Shown in pieces: positions 20,112-60,084 of a DNA stretch of 64,000 nucleotides; the stretch's first letter is position 1, and each line of letters opens with the position of its first letter. The DNA lies in NCBI GenBank assembly GCA_963664115.2, contig CAXWPJ010000004.1, forward strand, positions 64,001-128,000. The letters run 5' to 3'. The notes beneath the pieces were generated by a model. That model ran no database searches, was not told the origin of the DNA, and was given only the letters and a program-made list of their open reading frames with translations. The stretch is from Terriglobia bacterium (GTDB lineage: Bacteria > Acidobacteriota > Terriglobia > 20CM-2-55-15). The position numbers and the translations under genes are program-made.

Positions 20112-21960
20112 TCCCAAAACAAGCGCATAACCAGTCCGCCGAGGCCCAGTTCGCGCCGATAGAATTCGAGGCATAGAATCCCGTTCCCGGATGGCCTGTT
20201 CCAGGTATCGAGTTTCTGTTGAATCTGTTTCAGTTCAGCCTCGCTGGTGTTGGACGGTTGACAGAAACCGGGCCCTCGATCGCCCGGGCTCAGAGTCATG
20301 ATCGGGTCAACATCGCAGAGGCTGACGCAACACATCCACCCCGCGGAACAAGACCGGCAACCACCGGTTCCAGGCCAGGATCCGGAACAGAATGCGCCGC
20401 CCGGTGCGCACGAGTTGGCACGGCACAAGCATGAAAGCGTTCAAGAAGGTTTTGAACTCCATGCGCAGCACGGTTTGCTTCTCAGCCTGATATTTTTGGC
20501 CCCAACGTCCGGTTTCGGGAAGCAGCAATGCAAACCACGCTTTCAGTGTCCAGGCCAGTGACGCGATCACCATGTAGGCCCAGTTGCTGGTCTGATCTCC
20601 GACCGGCATCCGCAACGCCTGAACGCCGTTCTTCAACTGCTCAATGAGATTCTCCTGATTGCACCGTTGATTGGCACGCATCACAATCTGGTCGGCCGGA
20701 TCCGAACGGTTGGTAATGTAGAAGAAGTACCGGATGTCGTCAAACAACACCTGCTCTCCTTTGGCCACCGACAGATTCTTCCGCACCACGACGACACGGT
20801 AGTCCCGATCGCAGGCTCCGGGTCGATACCGAAACTCGGCCACATCCTCACCCTGCAAGCGGATATTGTCGAAACCGCGCTGCCGAACGATCTCTTCCTT
20901 CACGTTGTCGGGACGTTGGCGCGGTTCGGTCGCCACGTCGTATTTCGCGGGCCGTTCCAGGCGCTTCCACTGGCGCGGCTCCAGTTCATCGGCCCGGGCC
21001 TTCAGGTTCGCCATCGCGTCAATCCCGAATATGAAACCCACCTGCTGGTCGTCCCATCCGTCCAGATGCCGGGTCTGGCTGAAGTCCGTGTCCCCGCGCA
21101 GCAGGATCTGGCGAAACCCCGCATGCCGGCACAATGCGATGGCTTGGTCGAACCGGACCGCGGCTCCTTCATGCGACGGCCGGTTGCCGCTACGATTGAC
21201 CAGATACAGCGGTTCGGCGGTGTTGGCCAGCGAGATCATCAGCGGGTGATATCCCCACGTCCCGTCGTAGGCCACGTCCATCCCTTGCTTGCATTCCCCC
21301 GTGGTTTCGGCCAGTGTCCCGTCCGCGTCCAACACCGCTTCTTCGAAAAACGCCGCCGGTTGCTGTCGCCAGACTCCGAGCCGGACTTGATTGGTTGCCT
21401 CCATCAGACACTCCACGTCGTCGGCCTCGAATCTCCGGCAGAAGTCTCCCGCCGTCGTCGGATCCGGAATCCGTTGCGCTCCCAGCGCATCCAGATACAC
21501 CGCATCGTTGCGCCGCAGTTCGATGTCTTCCAGGCACGTTCCTCCGCTCAAGGCGTTGTAGGCGATGTTCAGCACGTGATCCGACTCGTGATACGGCAGG
21601 TGCCGCTTCAACACATGCACGCCCTTGTCGATGGCTTCGATCAGCCCGGTCCGCCGCGCCACCAGTTGCATCGTCCCGATACCACCAACCGATGTGCCCC
21701 GCGTCCGCTCTCCCATCTCGTACTGAATGTTGCTCGCCGAAAACATCGGCTCTACCTGATCCGTCCAATGCCGGTCCCCAAGCCGACGTTCGATTCGCCG
21801 CTTGCGGTTCCTCATGTTCTTGCGCGTATAATCGTTCATCTGAAATGCCTCCTTTTCCGAAGAATCTGTTCAAGGTTTTTTTCGCACGGAGAGGGGGCAT
21901 TTCGGGTACTTCCGCTCTTATTGCACTATCATTTCCTCGTCAATCACGCTTGTTCAGGGA
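20112..21960 (-). mobile_element. IS1380-family insertion sequence
   Basis: TIRs TCCCAAAACAAGCG (20112-20125) and CGCTTGTTCAGGGA (21947-21960), 12/14 match; CTAG on both sides (20108-20111, 21961-21964). Confidence 0.9.
20307..21839 (-). CDS. IS1380-family transposase
   Basis: LDADGT, GYHPL, LRGDTDF, RCNQENLIEQLK, NWAYM motifs; 510 aa. Confidence 0.92.
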   Translation of the reverse strand: MNDYTRKNMRNRKRRIERRLGDRHWTDQVEPMFSASNIQYEMGERTRGTSVGGIGTMQLVARRTGLIEAIDKGVHVLKRHLPYHESDHVLNIAYNALSGGTCLEDIELRRNDAVYLDALGAQRIPDPTTAGDFCRRFEADDVECLMEATNQVRLGVWRQQPAAFFEEAVLDADGTLAETTGECKQGMDVAYDGTWGYHPLMISLANTAEPLYLVNRSGNRPSHEGAAVRFDQAIALCRHAGFRQILLRGDTDFSQTRHLDGWDDQQVGFIFGIDAMANLKARADELEPRQWKRLERPAKYDVATEPRQRPDNVKEEIVRQRGFDNIRLQGEDVAEFRYRPGACDRDYRVVVVRKNLSVAKGEQVLFDDIRYFFYITNRSDPADQIVMRANQRCNQENLIEQLKNGVQALRMPVGDQTSNWAYMVIASLAWTLKAWFALLLPETGRWGQKYQAEKQTVLRMEFKTFLNAFMLVPCQLVRTGRRILFRILAWNRWLPVLFRGVDVLRQPLRC

Positions 21961-26223: not shown

Positions 26224-27420
<1,197 letters not shown>

Positions 27421-38769: not shown

Positions 38770-39162
38770 ATGAACACAGCACGCGCGTTAACTCTTTTTG
38801 CTACGGCCACCCTGTTGCTGGCTGTTTGTGTCGATACGGCGTCAGCCCACCATTCCACTACGATTTATGATTCCGACAATCCTATTGAGCTCAGTGGCAC
38901 GGTGGTTGAATGGAGGTTCATCAATCCTCATTGCATCATCATGCTTGAAGTGACCGACGAGAGCGGAGACACCTCGATCTGGATTCTGGAAGGTAGCAAC
39001 ACCAGCGTCCTGTTTCGCCGCGGCTGGACACCGATGACACTACAGTCGGAGGATAAAATCATTGTTAGAGTCCGACCGCTACGTAGCGGCGTCCCCGGCG
39101 GCAACTACAGTGATCCTCGTTGGGAAGATGGTACGCCTGTCGATCCAAGCGCTGATGACTAA
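38770..39162 (+). CDS. DUF6152-like secreted protein (copy A0)
   Basis: Signal peptide ASA|HHS, INPH, W.LE, RRGW. Confidence 0.8.
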   Translation: MNTARALTLFATATLLLAVCVDTASAHHSTTIYDSDNPIELSGTVVEWRFINPHCIIMLEVTDESGDTSIWILEGSNTSVLFRRGWTPMTLQSEDKIIVRVRPLRSGVPGGNYSDPRWEDGTPVDPSADD

Positions 39163-39208
39163 GTGGGTGATAAGCATGTTTATGCTGACAGAGGGCGGAA
39201 TCAACAAC

Positions 39209-40042
39209 ATGAGTAGGCTCTTGATCGTGATCATCTTCGCTATGGTGACTGCTATCTCATGTGCACAACAGGAAAGTACATCGGGCACGGCTGCTTTCGC
39301 CACATATCCTGACTGGGGAGGACAATGGCAACGCATCGGCAGTCTGAACTGGCCCCCGGAAGGATACACGGAAGCGGGGCCTGCGCCCTTGACCGAGGAA
39401 TACCAGGCAATCTACGAAGAGAACCTGGAGCTGCGCAGCAATGGCGTTCTGGCCGGTGATCCACCTGCGACGTGCCTGCCGCCAGGTATGCCCAGGGTAA
39501 TGAAAATGAGTTTCCCGATGGAGATTATTGTCACTCCTGACATGACCCACATCATTGCCGACTGGGAGAGTCAGGTACGTCGCATTTACACAGATGGGCG
39601 CGCCTGGCCCGACTATATATTGCCGGAATTCAACGGGTATTCGATTGGCGAGTGGCACGATGAAGATATTGATGGTGTCTATGACATGCTTTCAATCGAA
39701 ACGCGTGGCATCAAAGGACCCCGTTCCATTGATTCCACAGGCGTGGTTCTGCACGAAAATAACCAGACGGTGGTGCTGGAAGAGATCCGCCGCGTTGATG
39801 AGAACACGATGGAAGACAGAGTGACCACAATCGACGATGCCTTTACCGGACCCTGGACGATCAATCAGCACTACAGCCACGTCACCGAAGACATCGTCTG
39901 GGTCGAGTACGTCTGCGCCGAAGGCAATCGCCACATAAAACTCGGTGATGAGTGGTACTTTCTGAATGATGCCGAAGGAATTCTGGAGCCAACCCGCGCA
40001 GGTCAAGCTCGGCTCGTTCCGGAAACTCAGGTCAATCAATAA
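39209..40042 (+). CDS. secreted/lipoprotein partner of DUF6152 (copy B0)
   Basis: DP..TCLPPGMPR, RRIYTDGR, GYSIGEW, IET, EYVCAEGN. Confidence 0.8.
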   Translation: MSRLLIVIIFAMVTAISCAQQESTSGTAAFATYPDWGGQWQRIGSLNWPPEGYTEAGPAPLTEEYQAIYEENLELRSNGVLAGDPPATCLPPGMPRVMKMSFPMEIIVTPDMTHIIADWESQVRRIYTDGRAWPDYILPEFNGYSIGEWHDEDIDGVYDMLSIETRGIKGPRSIDSTGVVLHENNQTVVLEEIRRVDENTMEDRVTTIDDAFTGPWTINQHYSHVTEDIVWVEYVCAEGNRHIKLGDEWYFLNDAEGILEPTRAGQARLVPETQVNQ

Positions 40043-40297
40043 TCCACACTTGCCGGTGGCGTGAAGCACGTCGCCCGTCCCTGGCCGAGGCTGGAACCCA
40101 TTCTCGAGACCCGAAAAATCCCTCTTGTCGGAAGTTAAAAAACCCCAGAGGTAAAAAAGTCCAGGATTCAAACGACAATTCGCTACCCGCAGGGCAGGCG
40201 CAAGGGAGTTTGCAGTCAGAGAACTGAAGGCAAGCAGCCTTTCCGTTCCAATAGCTTGTTCGAATCGAGTGCAAACCCTTCATGCACACGCATCCGC

Positions 40298-42133
40298 CTA
40301 TCCCCGCCGACCCGCTGGCGTCGGTTCTTCCTGCTCGGGCGTGAAGTCCTCGCCGGGATTGATGAACTGGTTCGTTTCGAACTGATACTGCCTGTCGTGC
40401 AGCTCTCTATATCGACCGTTGAGTGCCATGAGCTTGTCGTGACTGCCGCGCTCGACAATCTCCCCGCCCTCCAACACCAATATCTGATCAGCACTGCGAA
40501 TCGTTGACAATCTGTGAGCGATGACGAAGCTTGTGCGGCCCCGTCGCAGTGCCCGCAGACCGTCCTGGATCATCGCTTCGCTCTCTGAATCGAGACTGGA
40601 TGTGGCTTCGTCGAGAATGAGAATGCGGGGATCGGCTAGAACCGCTCGGGCGATGGCGACCCGCTGCCGCTGGCCACCGGAGAGCTTTACGCCTCGTTCG
40701 CCGACGATCGTATTGTAGCCGTTCTCAAAACGGTCGATGAACTCCGCACAATGGGCGATGCGGCAAGCGCTAACGACTTCTTCCTTGTTCGCCGACGGAT
40801 TTGCGAAAGCAACGTTCTCGCCTATCGTTCCATCGAACAGGAAGTTATCCTGAAAAACCGCGCCAAGGAGTGTGCGGTACTCACGCAACTTAAGGCCCGA
40901 TAGATCCCTGCCGTCGATCATCACGTGGCCTTCCTGTGGCTGATTGAAGTTCAGCACAAGGCTGATGAGCGTGCTCTTTCCAGAGCCACTCGAACCCACC
41001 AGGGCAGTCGTCGATCCAGCCGGAGCGACAAAGGACACGTTCTTGAGGACGGGCACGCCCTCTTCATACTCGAACCACACGCCCTGGAACTCTATGTCGC
41101 CTCTCAGCTCACCCAATGGAGAGCGTTCGGCGTCTTCGTCGTCCTCGGTCCGCATCGCCATGATTTCCTGGATGCGGTCCAGCCCGGCGAACGCTTCGGT
41201 GATCTGCGTCCCAATGTTGGCCAACTGCACCACGGGCATCGCCATGGTGCCCGTGAAAGCGACGTACATGATCAGGTCGCCCAACGTCATGTCGCCGCGC
41301 ACAACGGCTTGTCCTCCAACTATAAAGATCACCAGGCCGATCGTGCCTATAACAGCGGAGGAAAACGCCATCACAAATGACGTGCCGGTCAGCGACTTGG
41401 CGATGTTCCGGAATAGCTTGTGAACATGCCGGGCAAACACCAGATCCTCGCGCCGTTCTGCCGTGTACGTTTTGATGACCCGAACGCCCGCCAAGGACTC
41501 CGACAACCGCCCCGTAACATCCGCCATCAACTGGCCCCGCATCCGAAACAGGGGACGCAAGCGCTTGAAAGTGACCGCCAGCACTGCGCCGAATAGCCCC
41601 AACACCGCCATGGTGATCAACGTGAGATGCCAATTCAGATAGAACAACACCCCTAATGCCAGCACGGCCGTCAGAACGCCACCCGTCAGTTGCACAAGCC
41701 CCGTACCGACCAGATTGCGGATACCCTCGGCGTCGGTCATGATTCGTGAAATCATCTCGCCCGTTTTCATGGAGTCGAAGTAACCGACAGGCAACCGGCT
41801 GATACGTTCGAACAGGCGTTTGCGCATCTCGGTGATCGCCCGCTGCGCGGCCACACCCATAATTTGCGATAACGCGAACGTCGTAATCGCTTGCAAAAAG
41901 ATGGCGCAAGCGACGGCAAAGGCCACCCTCACCAGCAGTTCGGTCCGTCCGTTGCCGATCACCTCGTCAATGACGTACTTGGTCGATGCCGGCATGACCA
42001 GACCCAGCATCCTGTTGATCAGCATGAGGCCCAAACCAAGCATCAGTCGGTGCCTGTGCCGGTGTACCAGCACCTTGGCTTCGATCATCGCGTTGGAGTA
42101 TTTAACCTTTTGTTTCGGCTTCTCTTCGCTCAT
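40298..42133 (-). CDS. ABC exporter, fused permease/ATPase (MsbA-like)
   Basis: GSSGSGKS, LSGGQRQR, ILDEATS, IAHRLST; N-terminal TM domain. Confidence 0.95.
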   Translation of the reverse strand: MSEEKPKQKVKYSNAMIEAKVLVHRHRHRLMLGLGLMLINRMLGLVMPASTKYVIDEVIGNGRTELLVRVAFAVACAIFLQAITTFALSQIMGVAAQRAITEMRKRLFERISRLPVGYFDSMKTGEMISRIMTDAEGIRNLVGTGLVQLTGGVLTAVLALGVLFYLNWHLTLITMAVLGLFGAVLAVTFKRLRPLFRMRGQLMADVTGRLSESLAGVRVIKTYTAERREDLVFARHVHKLFRNIAKSLTGTSFVMAFSSAVIGTIGLVIFIVGGQAVVRGDMTLGDLIMYVAFTGTMAMPVVQLANIGTQITEAFAGLDRIQEIMAMRTEDDEDAERSPLGELRGDIEFQGVWFEYEEGVPVLKNVSFVAPAGSTTALVGSSGSGKSTLISLVLNFNQPQEGHVMIDGRDLSGLKLREYRTLLGAVFQDNFLFDGTIGENVAFANPSANKEEVVSACRIAHCAEFIDRFENGYNTIVGERGVKLSGGQRQRVAIARAVLADPRILILDEATSSLDSESEAMIQDGLRALRRGRTSFVIAHRLSTIRSADQILVLEGGEIVERGSHDKLMALNGRYRELHDRQYQFETNQFINPGEDFTPEQEEPTPAGRRG

Positions 42134-42624
42134 GTTCCGCCCTATAGTACACGGTGCCCCGCATACCACACCATGGGGAGGGTCCTGTCAGTAAAACTGA
42201 AATCCGGCCATTCTGGCGCCGCATTCAGACAGTGCCACGAAGTGAACCGTCCACTCCTGCCCACCGCTGAAATCCATTCTCAAGGCCAAACAAATCATCG
42301 TTTCTCTGGACTTGAGAATTTAATAGCGCCCAATTCCCCTTCTTAGTATTGCCTACCGAGTTTTTCAAGGTTCGATCAGCGACACACTTTAAACATGGAA
42401 TCCGGCACCAACAGACACCTAGTGTGCTACCGACGGATGTTCACGCGATGCTTGCGGGAATGAGAATCACATGTGTAGACTCTCCATTGAATGACCCGGC
42501 CAGATTACACGCCCCGTCGGTTCACCCATCAATATGCGATGCGTGTGGATTGTTTTTATTGTTCGCTGGTAAAGCTGTTTTCGCGGCCTGTACCGCACCG
42601 ATGCGGTTATCTCGATTGAGGCTT

Positions 42625-43437
42625 ATGGGTGCAGTAGGTATAACTCAAAGGCGAGGATGGACCTCGGCCCTGGCGGTCGTTTTCTTAGTCGCGTTGCTTG
42701 TCTTTGCTCCAGAGAATCTGTCGGCACAAAGTAACGAGCAGTTCGACAAGTCTTTTCCGTATATCGGAAGCTGGGACAACGGGGCCGACAATCCCGACGG
42801 TCAGGATCGGGGCAATTGCGGGGGGCGACTTGGAGACTACGGCGAAAAGCTGATCAACTGCTCCTTGCCGGTGGACCAGCTTCCGTTGAACCGCCGGGGA
42901 GAGGCCTGGCTGGAGTTCGTGGACCACCAGGCGTCGCCCGCCCTGGCCGAATGCGCGGACGTGGCCATTCCGGGATTGTTGGGCAGCACCATGCACATCT
43001 CCGGATATCCGAACCGATTGGTGTTTCAACATTCCATTCGCCTGACCACCCGGACCATTTGGATGGATGGGCGTGGTCACCCGGAAGCCCGGCACCTTTT
43101 CCAGCATGGCCATTCAATCGGCTGGTGGGACGGCGAAGACCTGGTCGTCGAAACCACCAACTTCACCTTCGACCCCGACGGCATCGACGACCACCTCCAT
43201 ATGGCGTCTTCGGTCCGAAAGAAAGTCACCGAACGCTACCAGGGGATCGATGAAAACACGCTCAGGCTCATTATCATCCTGGAAGACCCCACTTTTCTGA
43301 CGCGACCGTTTAAGTATGCCTACATCTTGAACAAACGGGCGAACGGACCAGCGCCGGACTGGGACGCCTGTGATCCCGAGGTTTCCCGAAACGAAGTCAT
43401 TTTTGCCTATCCCGGAAACAAATATCCCGAGGACTGA
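42625..43437 (+). CDS. DUF6152-partner family protein, orphan copy B3
   Basis: RTIWMDGRGHP, GHSIGWWDGEDLVVETTNF, TERY, EDP; paralog of 59004-59867; start approximate. Confidence 0.78.
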   Translation: MGAVGITQRRGWTSALAVVFLVALLVFAPENLSAQSNEQFDKSFPYIGSWDNGADNPDGQDRGNCGGRLGDYGEKLINCSLPVDQLPLNRRGEAWLEFVDHQASPALAECADVAIPGLLGSTMHISGYPNRLVFQHSIRLTTRTIWMDGRGHPEARHLFQHGHSIGWWDGEDLVVETTNFTFDPDGIDDHLHMASSVRKKVTERYQGIDENTLRLIIILEDPTFLTRPFKYAYILNKRANGPAPDWDACDPEVSRNEVIFAYPGNKYPED

Positions 43438-43787
43438 CCGACGATGACACGCTGTCTGGCGGGTAATTGTCAGGTGAAAGCCCCACACCCCACAATGGCG
43501 GGATGAAGACTCGAAGGAAGGGGTTTCCCTACCTTAGTTTTGCGAGGTCAACGCCCGACAATTCGCGATGCAGGACAGTGAAGAACGCCGATGCGGGCTT
43601 GTTCTCAGTTGGCGCGATGGGCGTTTGTCAGGAGTCGAGAGTTTATTTGCTTCTAAATCACTCCTCTAGTATCGTTTGTAAAATGTTTAACGGTTCAAAG
43701 CGACAACCCTCAGCCTTCTCGGCAACGGGAACTGAGAGCGTCGTTCGTCGGGGAAAATGTGGAAGAGGGGGAAAGGGAGAGATCAAC

Positions 43788-44180
43788 ATGAACATCAAGT
43801 TAACCATCCTTGCCACGTTGTTGAGTCTGTCGGTGGGTGTGATGGTGTCTCACGCACACCACGCGTTCGCTGCGATCTACGAAACTTCAAGAGAGGTTGC
43901 GTTTGAAGACGTAACGATTGTCAGCGTGGCCTGGACGAATCCGCACACGAGAATTGCGTTCGATGTCACCGACGAGAACGGCGAGATCACACGTTGGAAT
44001 ACGGAAACGGGGAGCCCATCGGCGCTGTCGCGTATGGGTTGGTTGAGAAACGCCGTGAAACCCGGCGATGTAATCGACGTTGAGGTGAATCCCGCGACGG
44101 ACGAGACGCCGCGCGGTCATCTGGCCAAAGTGACTTTAGCCAATGGTACGGTGTTTGATCGCACCGGCATCGGGAATTAG
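43788..44180 (+). CDS. DUF6152-like secreted protein (copy A1)
   Basis: SHA|HHAF, TNPH, WNTE, MGW, KPGD; GGAGA RBS. Confidence 0.85.
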   Translation: MNIKLTILATLLSLSVGVMVSHAHHAFAAIYETSREVAFEDVTIVSVAWTNPHTRIAFDVTDENGEITRWNTETGSPSALSRMGWLRNAVKPGDVIDVEVNPATDETPRGHLAKVTLANGTVFDRTGIGN

Positions 44181-44195
44181 GCGGAGGCATCCGAC

Positions 44196-44942
44196 ATGAT
44201 CAGGCGTTCGAATAGTGTGTGCTTCTTTGCAGTTCTGTTTCTCAGCCTGTCGCCCTACGGAGCTGCCCAGGAGCCCGCACCGGTCCGCGATCTGAACGGC
44301 GTGTGGAATGGCGGCGCGGTCATGCGCCTGGAGCCGGTCCCCGAAATGACCGAGTGGGGACAAGAGCGGTTCGACGCGGCCCGGCCGTTTCGCGGGCCGA
44401 GAGCGGTTGCGGTGTCCGATTCGAACGACGGCTTCCGCATGTGCGATCCGCTGGGATTTCCCCGCAGTATCTTTTACGAACTCCGCGGTGTGGAGTTTTT
44501 CGAGATGCCCAACAAAATGTTGATGCTGTTCCAGTACCAGCGTACATGGCGCGAGATCTGGACAGACGGACGCGAACTCCCAACGAACGTGGGGACCTAC
44601 GAAGACGGCGCTCCCGACCCGGCCTACTTAGGCTACGCCGTGGGCCGGTGGGTGGATGACTCCACCTTTGTCGTCAATTCCACGGGATTCCATGAAGCGC
44701 CCTGGAGTGATCCGGAAGGTCACCCGCGGAGCGTGAGCGCGCGGATAGAAGAACGCTATCGCCGCATCGACCACGATAGTCTGGAAATCACCGTGACAAT
44801 CGATGATCCTGTAGCCTATACGGAGCCGTTCGTGGGGATGAAACAGGTCATCAGTTGGGACCCGGACCAGGAGTTCGAAGAGCAATTCTGCATCCCTTCG
44901 GAAGCGATCGAGTACATGCGGACGTTCGCGCCGGAGCAGTAG
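44196..44942 (+). CDS. DUF6152-partner family protein (copy B1)
   Basis: DLNGVW, CDPLGFPR, REIWTDGR, GYAVGRW, EERYRR, DDP, EEQFC. Confidence 0.85.
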   Translation: MIRRSNSVCFFAVLFLSLSPYGAAQEPAPVRDLNGVWNGGAVMRLEPVPEMTEWGQERFDAARPFRGPRAVAVSDSNDGFRMCDPLGFPRSIFYELRGVEFFEMPNKMLMLFQYQRTWREIWTDGRELPTNVGTYEDGAPDPAYLGYAVGRWVDDSTFVVNSTGFHEAPWSDPEGHPRSVSARIEERYRRIDHDSLEITVTIDDPVAYTEPFVGMKQVISWDPDQEFEEQFCIPSEAIEYMRTFAPEQ

Positions 44943-45090
44943 ACAGAGTGATTCACCTGCCGGGGCTCGGACCTCTGGCGTCGACATCGTTGACATCAAC
45001 GGTGGCGGCGGAATAGTATCGCTCTGTAAATATTATTTTGACCGCCCTGATGGTCATCAGTAAGTACCCTCAAAAGGTCGAGGAGGACAG

Positions 45091-45486
45091 ATGAAAACAA
45101 TCGGAGTAGCCCTGATGGTCGCGCTGCTCGCCCTGTCGGTGGGCGTGACGGCGTCATACGCGCACCACGCGTTCGGTGCAATATACGAAAGCTCAGCGGA
45201 GGTTGCGTTTGAAAATGTGACGATTGTCAGTGTGGCCTGGACGAATCCACACACTCGCATTGCATTCGACGTGACCGATGAGAACGGCACCGTGAGCCGT
45301 TGGAACTCGGAAACGGGGAGCCCGTCGGCTCTGTCGCGCATGGGCTGGTTGAGAAACGCCGTAAAGCCCGGCGATGTCATCGACGTTGCCCTTCAACCGG
45401 CGATGGACGGGACCAAACGCGGTCACCTGTTCCGCGTTGTCTTGCCGGATGGCACGGAATTCAATCGCCGCGGCGCCGCGAGATAA
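45091..45486 (+). CDS. DUF6152-like secreted protein (copy A2)
   Basis: SYA|HHAF, TNPH, WNSE; core nearly identical to A1. Confidence 0.85.
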   Translation: MKTIGVALMVALLALSVGVTASYAHHAFGAIYESSAEVAFENVTIVSVAWTNPHTRIAFDVTDENGTVSRWNSETGSPSALSRMGWLRNAVKPGDVIDVALQPAMDGTKRGHLFRVVLPDGTEFNRRGAAR

Positions 45487-45501
45487 GCTGGAGAACCCGA
45501 C

Positions 45502-46245
45502 ATGATCATGCGTTCCAGCACTGTGTATTTCTTTGTAATTCTGTTTCTCAGCCTGTCGCCTTACCTGACGGCCCAGGAACCGGCGCCGGTCCGCGACTTG
45601 ACCGGAGTCTGGGAGGGCCGGGTGAATTTCGACGCTCAGTTCGCTGAAATGACCGGGTTTGGACAGGAACAGTTCGATGCGCACCTGCCTTTCAGCGGGC
45701 CGCGCGCCGGCTCGGTCGCTGAATCGAATGACGGCTATCGCGTGTGCGATCCCCTGGGATTTCCGCGTAACGTCGTCTATGAGCTCCGTGGGACTGCGTT
45801 TGCCGAGATGCCGGACAGGATGGTGATGCTGATGCAGTACATGCGGCATTGGCGCGAGATCTGGACCGACGGACGGGAACTCCCAACGAACGTGGGAACC
45901 TACGAAGATGGCGCTCCCGATCCACGCTATAACGGCTACTCGGTGGGGCGGTGGGAGGACGACTACACCTTCGTCGTCAACTCCACGGGTTTCCACGAAG
46001 ACATCTGGGCCGACGAGCAAGGTCACCCGATCAGCACGAACGCGCAGATAGAGGAACGTTATCACCGGGTCGACCACGATAGTTTGGAAGTCACGATGAC
46101 CATTAACGATCCCATGAACTACACGGAACCGTTCGTGACAATCACGGAAACCTTGAACTGGGACGAGGACCAGGAATTTGAAGAGCAGCTCTGCATCCCC
46201 TCTCAAGCGCTAGAGTACATCCGGACGTTCGCGCCGGAGCGATAG
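45502..46245 (+). CDS. DUF6152-partner family protein (copy B2)
   Basis: DLTGVW, CDPLGFPR, REIWTDGRELPTNVGTYEDGAPDP (identical to B1), EEQLC. Confidence 0.85.
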   Translation: MIMRSSTVYFFVILFLSLSPYLTAQEPAPVRDLTGVWEGRVNFDAQFAEMTGFGQEQFDAHLPFSGPRAGSVAESNDGYRVCDPLGFPRNVVYELRGTAFAEMPDRMVMLMQYMRHWREIWTDGRELPTNVGTYEDGAPDPRYNGYSVGRWEDDYTFVVNSTGFHEDIWADEQGHPISTNAQIEERYHRVDHDSLEVTMTINDPMNYTEPFVTITETLNWDEDQEFEEQLCIPSQALEYIRTFAPER

Positions 46246-46804: not shown

Positions 46805-47938
46805 ATGAAATTCGGAGACAGACCAATTGTACTTGGCGCGGTGGTAATGGTGATCGCATGCATGGTGCCACTTGCGTCTGCAGTCGAACCCACGCAACCG
46901 CCGCAGCAGACCCCCCCGATGGCGGACGATGTATTCAATAATATCCAGGTTCTCACAGGGCTCACTGTGGACGAGTTTTGGAACACGATGGGGATGTTCG
47001 CAGCTTCGCTCACCAAGGACTGCGTCGATTGCCACGTCATCGGGGCCCTCGAGAATTGGGACGCCTTCGCCGAGGAAACAGACCAGATACGTATCGCCCG
47101 GGGCATGATTCGGATGGTGAACGATATCAACAACACTCAGTTCGGGGGCGCGCAAAGAGTAACGTGCTTCACGTGTCATCGCGCTACCTCGATTCCGGAG
47201 GCCGCGCCTGATCTTGCTCTGCAGTACGGTCTTGTCGAGAATCCGAATTCGATGACCTTGTACCCGACTCCTCTTGCACCGTCAGTCGAGGAAGTTTTTG
47301 ATACCTATATTGAGGCCATTGGCGGGGCCGAAGCCGTGGAAAGTATCGAGAACGTCGTTATCCGGGGGACGTATGCGGGTTTCGAAACCGGCCATATCGA
47401 CACTCCTTTTGAACTCTATGCTCAAGCTCCGGACAGACGCACGCGTATTTTCCACAAGGCCTCGGGAGACCACTACCGCGTTTATGACGGGGAAAACGGG
47501 TGGAATTCCAACCCTGATATGCCGGTTCCCTTGATCCCCAACTCTGGCGGCAATCTTTACGGCGACCGCATCGGCGCGCTGTTGTCCTTTCCGGCTCGAA
47601 TCCGGGAAAACTTCAGCCGGTGGGTGGTCAGCTTCGTTTTCGTCGGCGATGAGACCTTCACGGTCGCCCAGGGCGTCCAAGGCGCTGAGCTTCCGGTCAA
47701 CTTCTATTTCGACGAGTCCGGGCTGTTGACTAAGGTTGTGTACTGGACGGAGACCGCCGTGGGCCCGGTGACAAGCATGATCGAATACACCGATTACCGC
47801 GAGGTCGACGGGGTCATGGTGCCGTTCTTCTGGTCGGAGTCATGGACGACGGGAATGATCGAATCTACACTGACCGAGGTGGAATTTAACGTCCCGATCG
47901 ATTCCGCGAGATTCAGCCAACCGCCTCCTGCCTACTAA
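46805..47938 (+). CDS. diheme c-type cytochrome (reaction-centre cytochrome c-like) fused to a beta-sheet (LolA-like) domain
   Basis: Signal peptide, NIQVL, CVDCH, AR.MI.MV..IN, CFTCH; C-terminal YTDYREVDGVMVPF...VEFNVPID...F..P. Confidence 0.82.
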   Translation: MKFGDRPIVLGAVVMVIACMVPLASAVEPTQPPQQTPPMADDVFNNIQVLTGLTVDEFWNTMGMFAASLTKDCVDCHVIGALENWDAFAEETDQIRIARGMIRMVNDINNTQFGGAQRVTCFTCHRATSIPEAAPDLALQYGLVENPNSMTLYPTPLAPSVEEVFDTYIEAIGGAEAVESIENVVIRGTYAGFETGHIDTPFELYAQAPDRRTRIFHKASGDHYRVYDGENGWNSNPDMPVPLIPNSGGNLYGDRIGALLSFPARIRENFSRWVVSFVFVGDETFTVAQGVQGAELPVNFYFDESGLLTKVVYWTETAVGPVTSMIEYTDYREVDGVMVPFFWSESWTTGMIESTLTEVEFNVPIDSARFSQPPPAY

Positions 47939-57146: not shown

Positions 57147-57788
57147 ATGAAGAACTTTCAAATGGTTGTTGCCGCAGTCCTGCTCCTGGTGTTGGTCAAT
57201 TCACCGGGGCTTGCGCAAGACACGAGCATGAGCTTTTTTGTGACGAGCGTAGGCTCGGGCGATGGAGGAAATCTCGGCGGCCTCATCGGTGCCGATGCTC
57301 ACTGCCAGCAACTAGCCGCGGCCGTGGGCGCCGGGAACAAGACCTGGGTCGCCTACCTGAGCCAGAGTCAGAGGGCCGTGACGATAAACGCTCGCGATCG
57401 CATCGGAAATGGGCCGTGGTACAGCCCCACAGGTATCAAAGTTGCCGACAACATCGAGGATTTGCACTCCGACAGCTCCAACGTCACGGGGCGCACATCC
57501 TTGACCGAGCGAGGCGAGGAAGTTTCCAACCACGACATACTGACCGGCTCGCAGCCCGACGGGACAGCGTTTCCCTTTCCCATGATGGACATGCTGGACT
57601 TCGACGATCACACGATGACTTGTGGAAACTGGGCCAGCAACGACAGCGATCACTGGGCCATGATCGGACATAGTGACCGTGATGGCAGCGTCGGTTTTTC
57701 GTCCTGGAACGGGGCGCATCCGATCCGGAGCTGCAATCAAGCTGACGGCGGCACCGGTTTCCTGTTTTACTGCTTCGCCATTGATTAA
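57147..57788 (+). CDS. secreted lectin-like protein (endostatin/C-type-lectin-like fold)
   Basis: SFFVTS..G..NLGGL.GAD.HCQ.LA, W.AYLS, ARDRIG.GPW, HDILTGS, TC.NW, FYCFA. Confidence 0.8.
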   Translation: MKNFQMVVAAVLLLVLVNSPGLAQDTSMSFFVTSVGSGDGGNLGGLIGADAHCQQLAAAVGAGNKTWVAYLSQSQRAVTINARDRIGNGPWYSPTGIKVADNIEDLHSDSSNVTGRTSLTERGEEVSNHDILTGSQPDGTAFPFPMMDMLDFDDHTMTCGNWASNDSDHWAMIGHSDRDGSVGFSSWNGAHPIRSCNQADGGTGFLFYCFAID

Positions 57789-59003: not shown

Positions 59004-59867
59004 TCAATCTGCTCCATACTTTGCTCCCGGATAGGCGAAGTACACCTCATTTCTGGAAGCCTCCGGATCGCAGTTTTCCCATGCGGGCTCGATCCCCCCC
59101 GGACTTCTATAGAGGGAGAAGGCGTACTTGAACGGCCGCGTCAGGAACGTCGGGTCTTCCAGGGTGATGATGAGCCTCAAGATGTTTTCATCGACGATCT
59201 GATAGCGCTCGGTCACTTTCTTCCGTACCGATGTCGCCATATGAAGGTGATCGTCCATGCCATCGGGATCGAAAGTAAAATTGGTGGATTCGACAATCAG
59301 GTCGTCTCCGTCCCACCAACCGATCGAATGCCCATTCTGAAACAAGAATCGGGCCTGCGGATGCCCGCGTCCGTCCATCCATATTTCCCGGGTGATCAGG
59401 CCCACTGCATTGTCCGAATACTGGAATATCAGATGGTCCGGAAACGACCAAATATAGACCCCCGCGCCGAATATCGTCGGAATGGTCGGAAGGGCACACT
59501 CGGCCAGTGTCGGCGACATACGGTGGTCAGCGAACTCAAGCCAGGCCTCCGCCCTGCTGTTCAACGGAAGCTGGTCGGTCGGAATCGAGCAATTCAGCAG
59601 TTTTTCACCGTAGTCTCCCAGACGGCCGCCGCAGTTGCCACGTTCCTCGTCATCGGGATTTCTGATCCGCGTATCCCAGTTCCCAATAAGGGTAAAGGAC
59701 TTATCAAATTGCTCAAAGCTTTGTGCGGCCAGACCTGGCGGCACGAACATCAGCATCCATAGCAGGAAGCTCCCGAGTAGAAAGCTCCCAAGCAGAAAGC
59801 TCCCGACGGAACGCCCGTTCCAGCCTCGCTTCCGACAAGTCACTCTTTTTCCAAAAATACGTGTCAT
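59004..59867 (-). CDS. DUF6152-partner family protein, orphan copy B4
   Basis: NCGGRLGDYGEKL.NCS, REIWMDGRGHP, GHSIGWWDG; AGGAGA RBS. Confidence 0.8.
   Translation of the reverse strand: MTRIFGKRVTCRKRGWNGRSVGSFLLGSFLLGSFLLWMLMFVPPGLAAQSFEQFDKSFTLIGNWDTRIRNPDDEERGNCGGRLGDYGEKLLNCSIPTDQLPLNSRAEAWLEFADHRMSPTLAECALPTIPTIFGAGVYIWSFPDHLIFQYSDNAVGLITREIWMDGRGHPQARFLFQNGHSIGWWDGDDLIVESTNFTFDPDGMDDHLHMATSVRKKVTERYQIVDENILRLIITLEDPTFLTRPFKYAFSLYRSPGGIEPAWENCDPEASRNEVYFAYPGAKYGAD
59761..59805 (-). repeat. 3 x 15-bp tandem repeat encoding (GSFLL)3 in a signal peptide
   Basis: agcaggaagctcccg / agtagaaagctccca / agcagaaagctcccg. Confidence 0.8.
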
Positions 59868-60084
59868 TTGATATCTCCTGGCATAGCTCGTTGAATCAGG
59901 TGGAGTCCCTTTGAGACCTTCGCGGACCCAAATTGCTCTGGTCGAAACAACGGACAATATCACGCACGATACACCCGACAGGGCCGCAAGGTAAATCCCC
60001 TTCGCGGTCGCTGCGATTTCCTTAACCCGTCATCCATCCGTTTTGCTAGACTCCCCAGATATCCAAAACGTGAAGGAGCACGCA

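What the first reader, a model, noticed from the sequence alone, without database searches (positions are those of the whole stretch)
38770..46245. Repeated secreted two-gene module: N-terminal His-His/NPH protein (DUF6152-like) + Cys-paired beta-rich partner, a candidate undescribed periplasmic metal/redox system
Seen: three small proteins whose predicted signal cleavage (ASA|, SHA|, SYA|) exposes H-H at the mature N-terminus, all with NPH and WxxE. Each is followed directly by a secreted partner with C..(P)G.PR, R.I..DGR, GY..G.W and E..C motifs, and two more orphan partners occur in the window. Established: a free N-terminal His plus a distal His forms the copper His-brace of LPMOs and CopC. 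Inference: the small subunit binds Cu/Ni, the partner is a disulfide-stabilised ligand-binding barrel, and together they form a heterodimeric metalloenzyme or receptor diversified for many substrates. Nearby exported c-type cytochromes, PQQ enzymes and a lactonase fit periplasmic oxidative chemistry. I know of no functional description of this module.
Basis: partly seen in the sequence, partly recalled or inferred. Interest (0 to 1): 0.8.

Follow-up and report, generated by a model that had tools for sequence, protein, structure and literature searches.

The report
His-His metal subunit with swappable partners
This bacterium carries about 125 small exported proteins predicted to start with two histidines, most of them encoded beside or fused to one of two unrelated unnamed partner proteins, and they likely form an undescribed family of metal-dependent enzymes linked to a membrane protein, though no metal or activity has been tested.

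Summary
The window has three DUF6152 genes (A, PF19649), each followed by an unnamed Cys-paired gene (B), plus two further B genes. The 4.9-Mb genome holds 125 A and 145 B, 8 of them fused. 123 of 125 A have His-His after a signal-like peptide; 85 of 117 unfused A adjoin a B. AlphaFold gives A an OB-fold and B a lipid-binding-protein-like barrel; a natural fusion folds at pTM 0.90. Two corrections. (1) B is not obligatory: a clade of ten A pairs with an unrelated family C, and three other genomes hold only A plus a CopD-like membrane gene (DUF6644). (2) DUF6644 is the constant companion: A, B and DUF6644 occur in the same 11 of 121 genomes, and single-copy genomes carry B-B-A, a DUF6644 pair and a cytochrome c'-like gene. 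Best reading (0.4): a modular periplasmic redox metalloenzyme. Main rival (0.3): CopC/CopD-like metal trafficking. Metal binding, cleavage and A-B binding are untested. No paper names DUF6152 or DUF6644 in the library searched. This scan noted the A/B module before (31 findings, at least 27 genomes); family C was not found in those notes.

The parts
38770..39162 (+). A1: DUF6152 protein, signal-like peptide then HH (mature start predicted at 38848), NPH, WxxE
39209..40042 (+). B1: unnamed barrel partner, Cys89/Cys236; Cys18 in a lipobox-like context (read by eye)
42601..43437 (+). B gene without an upstream A (start uncertain), extra Cys pair; ends 350 bases before A2
43788..44180 (+). A2: DUF6152, SHA|HH
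44196..44942 (+). B2: barrel partner of A2
44990..45019 (+). sigma-70-like consensus match upstream of A3 (10 of 12); the region had 7 matches against 4.0 +/- 2.0 in shuffles, so weak
45091..45486 (+). A3: DUF6152, SYA|HH; 71% identical to A2
45502..46245 (+). B3: barrel partner of A3; AlphaFold model (pLDDT 94.2) resembles FABP/calycin barrels
46805..47938 (+). context only: exported c-type cytochrome (CytoC_RC-like domain); 4 of 5 paralogues lie within three genes of A/B
59004..59963 (-). second lone B gene (start uncertain), 65% identical to the one at 42601

Best explanation
A (DUF6152) is an exported OB-fold protein whose predicted mature His1-His2 tip and NPH histidine likely bind one redox-active metal, probably copper; it likely docks on a larger partner (barrel B, or family C) that would supply the substrate pocket, and a DUF6644 membrane pair with a cytochrome c'-like protein would carry electrons between that metal and the membrane. 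Shown: the genes, conservation, pairing, fusions and co-occurrence. Predicted: the folds and the A-B packing. Inferred: cleavage before His1, metal binding, haem in DUF6644, electron flow and catalysis. On this reading about 100 A/partner pairs, each with its own pocket, share about 20 membrane relays and work on many dilute organic substrates in the periplasm.
For: His1 in 123, His2 in 124 and the NPH His in 124 of 125 A, at a median pairwise identity of only 31%. Of the 150 best hits to a natural fusion, 136 hold both domains and all 136 have HH at the start of A. The fusion folds at pLDDT 94.8 and pTM 0.90 over both domains; a whole-chain pTM this high implies a defined relative orientation (inference). 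Partners are inherited together: Mantel rho 0.41 over 80 de-duplicated pairs against a maximum of 0.18 in 999 shuffles. B keeps both Cys in 138 of 146 domains, and the Cys-Cys pair is among the top four long-range couplings within B. A, B and DUF6644 occur in the same 11 of 121 genomes. All 7 single-copy loci fetched have B-B-A; 6 have an adjacent DUF6644 pair, 6 a cytochrome c'-like gene and 5 a PQQ dehydrogenase gene or fragment, 2 of them with an N-terminal c-haem domain. Novosphingobium humi has cytochrome c'-like, DUF6644 x2, B and A together. DUF6644 has an invariant His and Lys in 22 of 22 aligned rows and weak matches to DUF2214, CopD and UPF0093/HemJ; HemJ is a membrane b-type haem protein (PMC13564367, passages). 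The ratio of 125 A to 21 DUF6644 fits a shared relay.
Against: Inter-domain covariation did not beat shuffled pairing (top z 6.3 against 6.2 and 5.0). Tree congruence also follows from co-duplication alone. Three genomes hold A beside a DUF6644-like gene with no B found, which fits a CopC/CopD-like minimal unit better than an enzyme that needs a pocket. G008 has A and B but no DUF6644 match at 1e-5. 50 of 137 unfused B have no adjacent A. PQQ and CxxCH genes are not enriched near A/B in this genome. The single-copy loci are homologous cassettes from related genomes, not independent cases. The DUF6644 links to CopD and HemJ are below cut-off (hhalign to YebZ probability 0.5%). The four N-terminal-His families in PMC12537917 are presented as metal binders; DUF4198 showed only weak peroxidase activity (abstract and part 1 of Results).
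Confidence: 0.4

Rival explanations
1. Metal trafficking like CopC/CopD: A captures Cu or Ni in the periplasm and hands it to the DUF6644 membrane protein; B and C are receptors for metal chelates or acceptors of the metal.
For: Lone HHGW-type A sits directly beside a DUF6644-like gene in G236, G256, G276 and G014, and no B was found in the first three. DUF6644 weakly matches CopD (E 0.0012). A conserved His in the CopD domain of YcnJ is needed under copper limitation (PMC13344008, passages). Brace-like bacterial proteins mostly serve copper transport (PMC10952591, passages).
Against: 125 divergent paralogues with specifically co-inherited partners are far more than one metal needs. Single-copy cassettes carry a cytochrome c'-like gene in 6 of 7. 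No metal ATPase or multicopper oxidase family was recognised among the families most enriched near A/B (judged from representative sequences only).
Confidence: 0.3
2. Non-redox metalloenzyme: three His plus or minus Glu hold Zn, Ni, Co, Mn or Fe at the A-B interface for hydrolysis or lyase chemistry, and DUF6644 only loads the metal.
For: Three near-invariant His and a Glu in 98 of 125 A. Metallo-beta-lactamase-like (18 of 44) and NHL-propeller (14 of 28) genes are modestly enriched nearby (p 0.016 and 0.004 against secreted background). A B-hydrolase-A-B arrangement recurs in four loci.
Against: A cytochrome c'-like gene is conserved in the cassette across two phyla. The enrichments are small and uncorrected for many tests.
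Confidence: 0.15
3. A ligand-binding or sensing repertoire: B barrels bind diverse small molecules or haem, A caps the barrel, and the His tip ligates the bound molecule rather than a catalytic metal.
For: B resembles FABP, SAHS, UnaG and nitrobindin barrels (Z 7.4-8.4). Paralogue numbers suit a receptor library.
Against: A also pairs with an unrelated family or stands with DUF6644 alone. B has no His above 60 of 146. No transporter or signalling gene is a constant neighbour in the 7 single-copy loci.
Confidence: 0.12

Closest known systems
CopC/CopD (YobA/YebZ, YcnJ) copper-handling modules
   Same: Small exported protein with an N-terminal His beside a CopD-like membrane protein with a conserved His.
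   Different: A is an OB-fold; CopC is a beta-sandwich (recalled). A has His2 and an NPH His. DUF6644 scores below the CopD cut-off. Dedicated B/C partners and more than 100 paralogues have no counterpart.
Copper histidine-brace enzymes (LPMOs AA9/AA10 and kin)
   Same: Predicted free N-terminal His plus a distal His, with possible cytochrome partners.
   Different: Different fold, extra His2, two-component layout; T-shaped CuN3 geometry (PMC10952591) untested.
Signal-strapping metalloproteins DUF4198, DUF6702, Ang-1/2 (PMC12537917)
   Same: Secreted DUF proteins with post-cleavage His1.
   Different: DUF6152 is not in the main text, nor found in five supplementary files, one of them cut. DUF4198 is a beta-sandwich Ni binder.
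Calycin barrels (FABP/CRBP, SAHS, nanoKAZ, nitrobindin)
   Same: B model aligns at Z 7.4-8.4 over about 116-123 residues; N-terminal GxW motif.
   Different: About 10% identity, rmsd 3.5-3.9 A, about 100 extra residues, conserved Cys pair, no sequence-level match.
Pfam PF19649 (DUF6152) and PF20349 (DUF6644)
   Same: A and the membrane partner are members.
   Different: Both are of unknown function; B and C have no Pfam family.

Membership tests
PF19649 DUF6152 | score above gathering cut-off | tested here: met
   75-89 bits against 27 for the three window A
Copper histidine brace (LPMO/CopC) | His as residue 1 of the mature chain | tested here: inconclusive
   HH follows a signal-like peptide, Ala before it in 112 of 123; no SignalP or proteomics
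Copper histidine brace (LPMO/CopC) | second conserved distal His | tested here: met
   NPH His in 124 of 125
Copper histidine brace (LPMO/CopC) | T-shaped CuN3 site with bound copper | not testable with these tools
   model coordinates not returned; no metal data
CopC / LPMO protein families | family profile match and beta-sandwich fold | tested here: not met
   Pfam gives DUF6152 as the only family over its cut-off; the A part aligns to OB-folds, best Z 9.4, rmsd 2.6, 81 residues
OB-fold superfamily (A) | structural match over the domain | tested here: met
   many SSB, PriB and tRNA-synthetase OB domains over model residues 6-97; predicted model
Calycin/FABP-like barrel (B) | antiparallel barrel with N-terminal GxW | tested here: inconclusive
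   consistent top hits but middling Z 8.0-8.4, Foldseek E 3.4e-3; G23 in 131 and W25 in 118 of 146
CopD (PF05425) for the DUF6644 partner | score above gathering cut-off | tested here: not met
   19.6 bits against 32.1; 2 of 22 members match weakly; hhalign to YebZ 0.5%
Haem-b membrane proteins (HemJ-like) for DUF6644 | bound b-type haem | not testable with these tools
   invariant His and Lys; 1 of 22 matches UPF0093 at E 0.093
PsbP/DcrB-like fold for family C | profile similarity | tested here: inconclusive

The most novel reading that the evidence does not exclude
DUF6152 is the shared catalytic copper head of a new class of modular periplasmic oxygenases or oxidoreductases. One His-His OB-fold plugs into at least two unrelated specificity folds (B, C), is fed electrons by a two-subunit DUF6644 cytochrome b and a cytochrome c'-like lipoprotein, and has expanded to about 100 enzymes per genome in uncultured Acidobacteriota and Proteobacteria: a periplasmic counterpart of P450 expansions for breaking down dissolved organic matter.
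Probability: 0.25. Interest if true: 0.92.

Novelty: categorically new. Interest (0 to 1): 0.72.

Why it matters
A and B take up roughly 3.4% of this genome and are its two largest gene families. They reach 45 to more than 112 A matches in 12 of 18 genomes of the family, and a fusion query finds 6,927 clusters at 50% identity. None of the four core components (A, B, C, DUF6644) has a characterised relative in the libraries searched. If the His-His tip is a redox metal site, this is a new metalloenzyme architecture and a candidate for how uncultured soil and marine bacteria attack diverse organic matter. If it is a trafficking system, it is a new fold solving the CopC problem. A compact cassette in cultured Novosphingobium makes either directly testable. 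The novelty class rests on architecture; function is not shown.

Tried and rejected
Inter-domain covariation on 338 paired rows (effective 262) did not exceed shuffles. Sequence searches of solved structures gave nothing useful for A, B, the fusion profile (weak SSB/PriB rows at E 0.19-1.1), C or DUF6644. No CopC, LPMO, CusF or CcmE chain was among the 50 rows listed, which does not exclude them. ESM Atlas: B found only unnamed clusters; A found MamS/MamX at 0.82, a lead only. NCBIfam names neither A nor B. C as PsbP/DcrB-like: unsupported. C related to B: only the signal peptide aligns. Enrichment of PQQ and CxxCH genes near A/B in G000: rejected. Tat export: RRx[FLV] in 1 of 122 A and 0 of 143 B. 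Long open frames around A in 11 loci of other genomes showed no new fusion types on reading. The 431-aa gene between DUF6644 and B in N. humi is GH39-like, not a B. RNA contigs did not cover A1/B1; this is no evidence of silence. Paper searches: 'DUF6152' 0, 'DUF6644' 0, Acidobacteriota+sponge+PQQ+expansion+secreted 0, CopD+heme+electron transfer+CopC+cytochrome b561 0; two searches gave no CopD-haem paper; one search timed out. The primary HemJ paper is not held, so my recollection that it proposes His and Lys haem ligands is unverified.
Full report
Observation. The three small proteins are DUF6152. The partners have no Pfam family or NCBIfam family. An HMM built from genome paralogues finds three A and five B in the window. 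Close relatives of B3 lie in records titled Terriglobia or Acidobacteriota, and more distant ones in Vicinamibacterales, Gammaproteobacteria and Rhodospirillaceae. The host is therefore probably an acidobacterium (inference).

Scale. G000 (4.89 Mb) holds 125 A ORFs and 145 B ORFs, 8 of them A-B fusions; a few are identical copies. Together they are about 3.4% of the genome and the two largest families in an all-against-all clustering of 4,127 roughly called genes. In 31 related genomes DUF6152 matched 17. Twelve of 18 family members had 45 to 112 matches (112 is the scoring cap), three had none, and 0 of 14 control genomes matched. A mature fusion query finds 6,927 clusters at E<=0.001.

Anatomy of A. 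His1 is kept in 123, His2 in 124 and the NPH His in 124 of 125; the Trp and Glu of WxxE in 111 and 98. Before HH stands Ala in 112, Gly in 5, Ser in 5 and Pro in 1 of 123. No other gene with a credible signal peptide showed this start among the 3 pattern hits. Cleavage before His1 is inferred, not tested. The AlphaFold model of a natural fusion (147 rows) has pLDDT 94.8 and pTM 0.90. Its first 97 residues align to OB-folds (best Z 9.4, rmsd 2.6, 81 residues). From recalled chemistry, a His at position 2 allows a three-nitrogen Cu site other than the brace, so a metal site is likely but a histidine brace is not established.

Anatomy of B. Both Cys are kept in 138 of 146 domains, along with conserved Arg, Gly, Glu and Asp and an N-terminal GxW. 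The B3 model (pLDDT 94.2) matches calycin-like barrels at middling scores: nanoKAZ Z 8.4, SAHS 8.3, LBP-8 8.0, nitrobindin 7.4, and CRBP1 at Foldseek E 3.4e-3. The Cys-Cys pair ranks in the top four long-range couplings within B, which fits a disulfide.

Pairing. 85 of 117 unfused A adjoin a B on the same strand (53 A-B, 27 B-A, 5 both), against about 2% by chance. 87 of 137 unfused B adjoin an A, so 50 do not. In 78 loci from other genomes, 66 central B have an A within 700 bases and 72 have one somewhere in the locus. Partner similarity is correlated (rho 0.41, shuffle maximum 0.18; the nearest A has the nearest B in 36 of 80), which co-duplication alone can explain. 136 of the 150 best fusion hits hold both domains, all with HH first. 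Inter-domain covariation was no better than shuffled pairing. Physical binding therefore rests on fusions and on the fusion model only. Contigs from four RNA libraries (two studies) cover parts of A2-B3 with few or no differences, and one bridges A3 to B3. This is a weak hint of expression, since the runs were chosen by that stretch and can hold DNA.

A second partner, family C. Thirteen genes of an unnamed secreted family of about 215 aa lie within three genes of A or B (13 of 13). Eleven directly adjoin an A on the same strand. Ten of those A form one clade (SH-aLRT 98 in a quick tree with few columns) with a distinct signature: mostly HHSH and an RC...GC Cys pair. Of 30 C loci fetched (of about 90 matches; three from G000), 26 have an adjacent A and 25 of the Cys-pair type. 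In more distant families G134 showed this in 2 of 2 loci but G146 in 0 of 3. C has 463 homologues, no Pfam or PDB match and no similarity to B. It occurs in 3 of 121 genomes, all A-rich. It was not found in earlier scan notes.

The constant partner, DUF6644. 18 of 21 DUF6644-like genes in G000 lie within three genes of A or B, against 25% for secreted genes (p about 1e-8), mostly as tandem pairs. In an even sample of 121 genomes of the phylum, A, B and DUF6644 each matched the same 11 (G000 and ten genomes of four other families). Kin are not independent. Among 31 relatives DUF6644 matched 15; G008 has A and B without a DUF6644 match. Seven loci from genomes with a single A all read B-B-A. Six have an adjacent DUF6644 pair (the seventh ends at a contig edge, and that genome has a pair elsewhere), six a cytochrome c'-like CxxCH gene, and five a PQQ dehydrogenase gene or fragment. 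Cultured Novosphingobium humi (NZ_CP117419.1) has cytochrome c'-like, DUF6644 x2, a GH39-like gene, B and A. Novosphingobium sp. PP1Y has A-B facing DUF6644 x2-A. The Croceibacterium locus has A-A-B without DUF6644 nearby. In 201 genomes of the class of G149, A matched 4 and PF20349 only 1. The three others carry a single divergent HHGW-type A right beside a gene that my own DUF6644 profile detects (one A and one membrane gene look broken), and no B was found. The minimal unit is thus A plus membrane protein, the CopC/CopD layout. DUF6644 has an invariant His and Lys in 22 rows and only sub-threshold links to DUF2214, CopD and UPF0093/HemJ. The window holds no DUF6644-like or C gene.

Mechanism. 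The three His mark a metal site on A (inferred). The recurring cytochrome, the membrane protein with one invariant His, and 125 A for 21 membrane proteins point to a shared electron relay serving many A-partner pairs that differ in pocket. I put this modular redox metalloenzyme reading at 0.4. The lone A plus membrane units, and the behaviour of known N-terminal-His proteins, keep metal trafficking at 0.3. A non-redox metalloenzyme (0.15) and a ligand-binding library (0.12) follow.

Literature seen. PMC12537917: abstract, part 1 of 4 of Results, term searches of the main text and five supplementary files (one cut when stored); DUF6152 not found. PMC10952591, PMC13344008 and PMC13564367: passages only. 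Other papers: search listings only. Searches for DUF6152 and DUF6644 returned no paper. The library lacks most subscription journals, and bioRxiv supplements are closed, so a mention in a table cannot be excluded.

Earlier scan notes. 31 findings in at least 27 genomes describe the A/B module, and some describe the DUF6644, cytochrome and PQQ link. They are unchecked AI notes and are not counted as support. One led me to PMC12537917. One mentioned a pair of small membrane proteins before I ran my neighbour analysis.

Verdict. A real and very large undescribed system. Interest 0.72; categorically new in architecture, function unproven.

Noticed in passing
G000 C2:723888-727298, C6:259409-263009, C10:54002-57368, C10:528496-531752, C11:93659-97016; C7:86338-90086: A distinct B subfamily (13 genes) sits in a recurring operon B - metallo-beta-lactamase-like gene - A - B (four loci; a fifth has A between two B), and as B-hydrolase-B-B without A on C7.
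   Followed up: partly
G000 C9:1273364-1276294: An HHGW-type A and a DUF6644-like gene are separated by a 510-codon transposase gene, which looks like an interrupted minimal A + membrane unit.
   Followed up: partly
G000 C2:349872-350813, C5:120182-121111, C12:259658-260605: Three DUF6644-like proteins carry an extra N-terminal His-rich membrane domain (resembles DUF2231 from recall, not tested).
   Followed up: no
L125:11163-12440 (G018): Cytochrome c'-like domain fused to a C-terminal part with an HNVH...C..H.WM pattern that suggests a blue-copper site (read by eye), next to the B-B-A cassette.
   Followed up: no
window 57147-57788 +: Member of a 13-copy secreted DUF1554/endostatin-like family with conserved His and Cys; 8 of 13 lie near A/B.
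   Followed up: no
window 46805-47938 +: Exported protein with a photosynthetic-reaction-centre-type cytochrome c domain (NF033196 below cut-off) and a DUF6544-like tail; five paralogues.
   Followed up: partly
window 40298-42169 -: ABC exporter gene on the opposite strand splits the A/B cluster.
   Followed up: no
window 20307-21839 - and genome-wide: A 510-aa DDE transposase family has 79 members in the genome, and several other IS families are expanded.
   Followed up: no
window 26224-27420 +: EboE-family TIM-barrel gene (NF035939 above cut-off).
   Followed up: no
G000 C2:333461-335074; duplicates such as C2:11153 and C2:155728: A tandem B-B fusion, and several identical A/B or fusion copies at distant sites, which suggests recent duplication or assembly repeats.
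   Followed up: no
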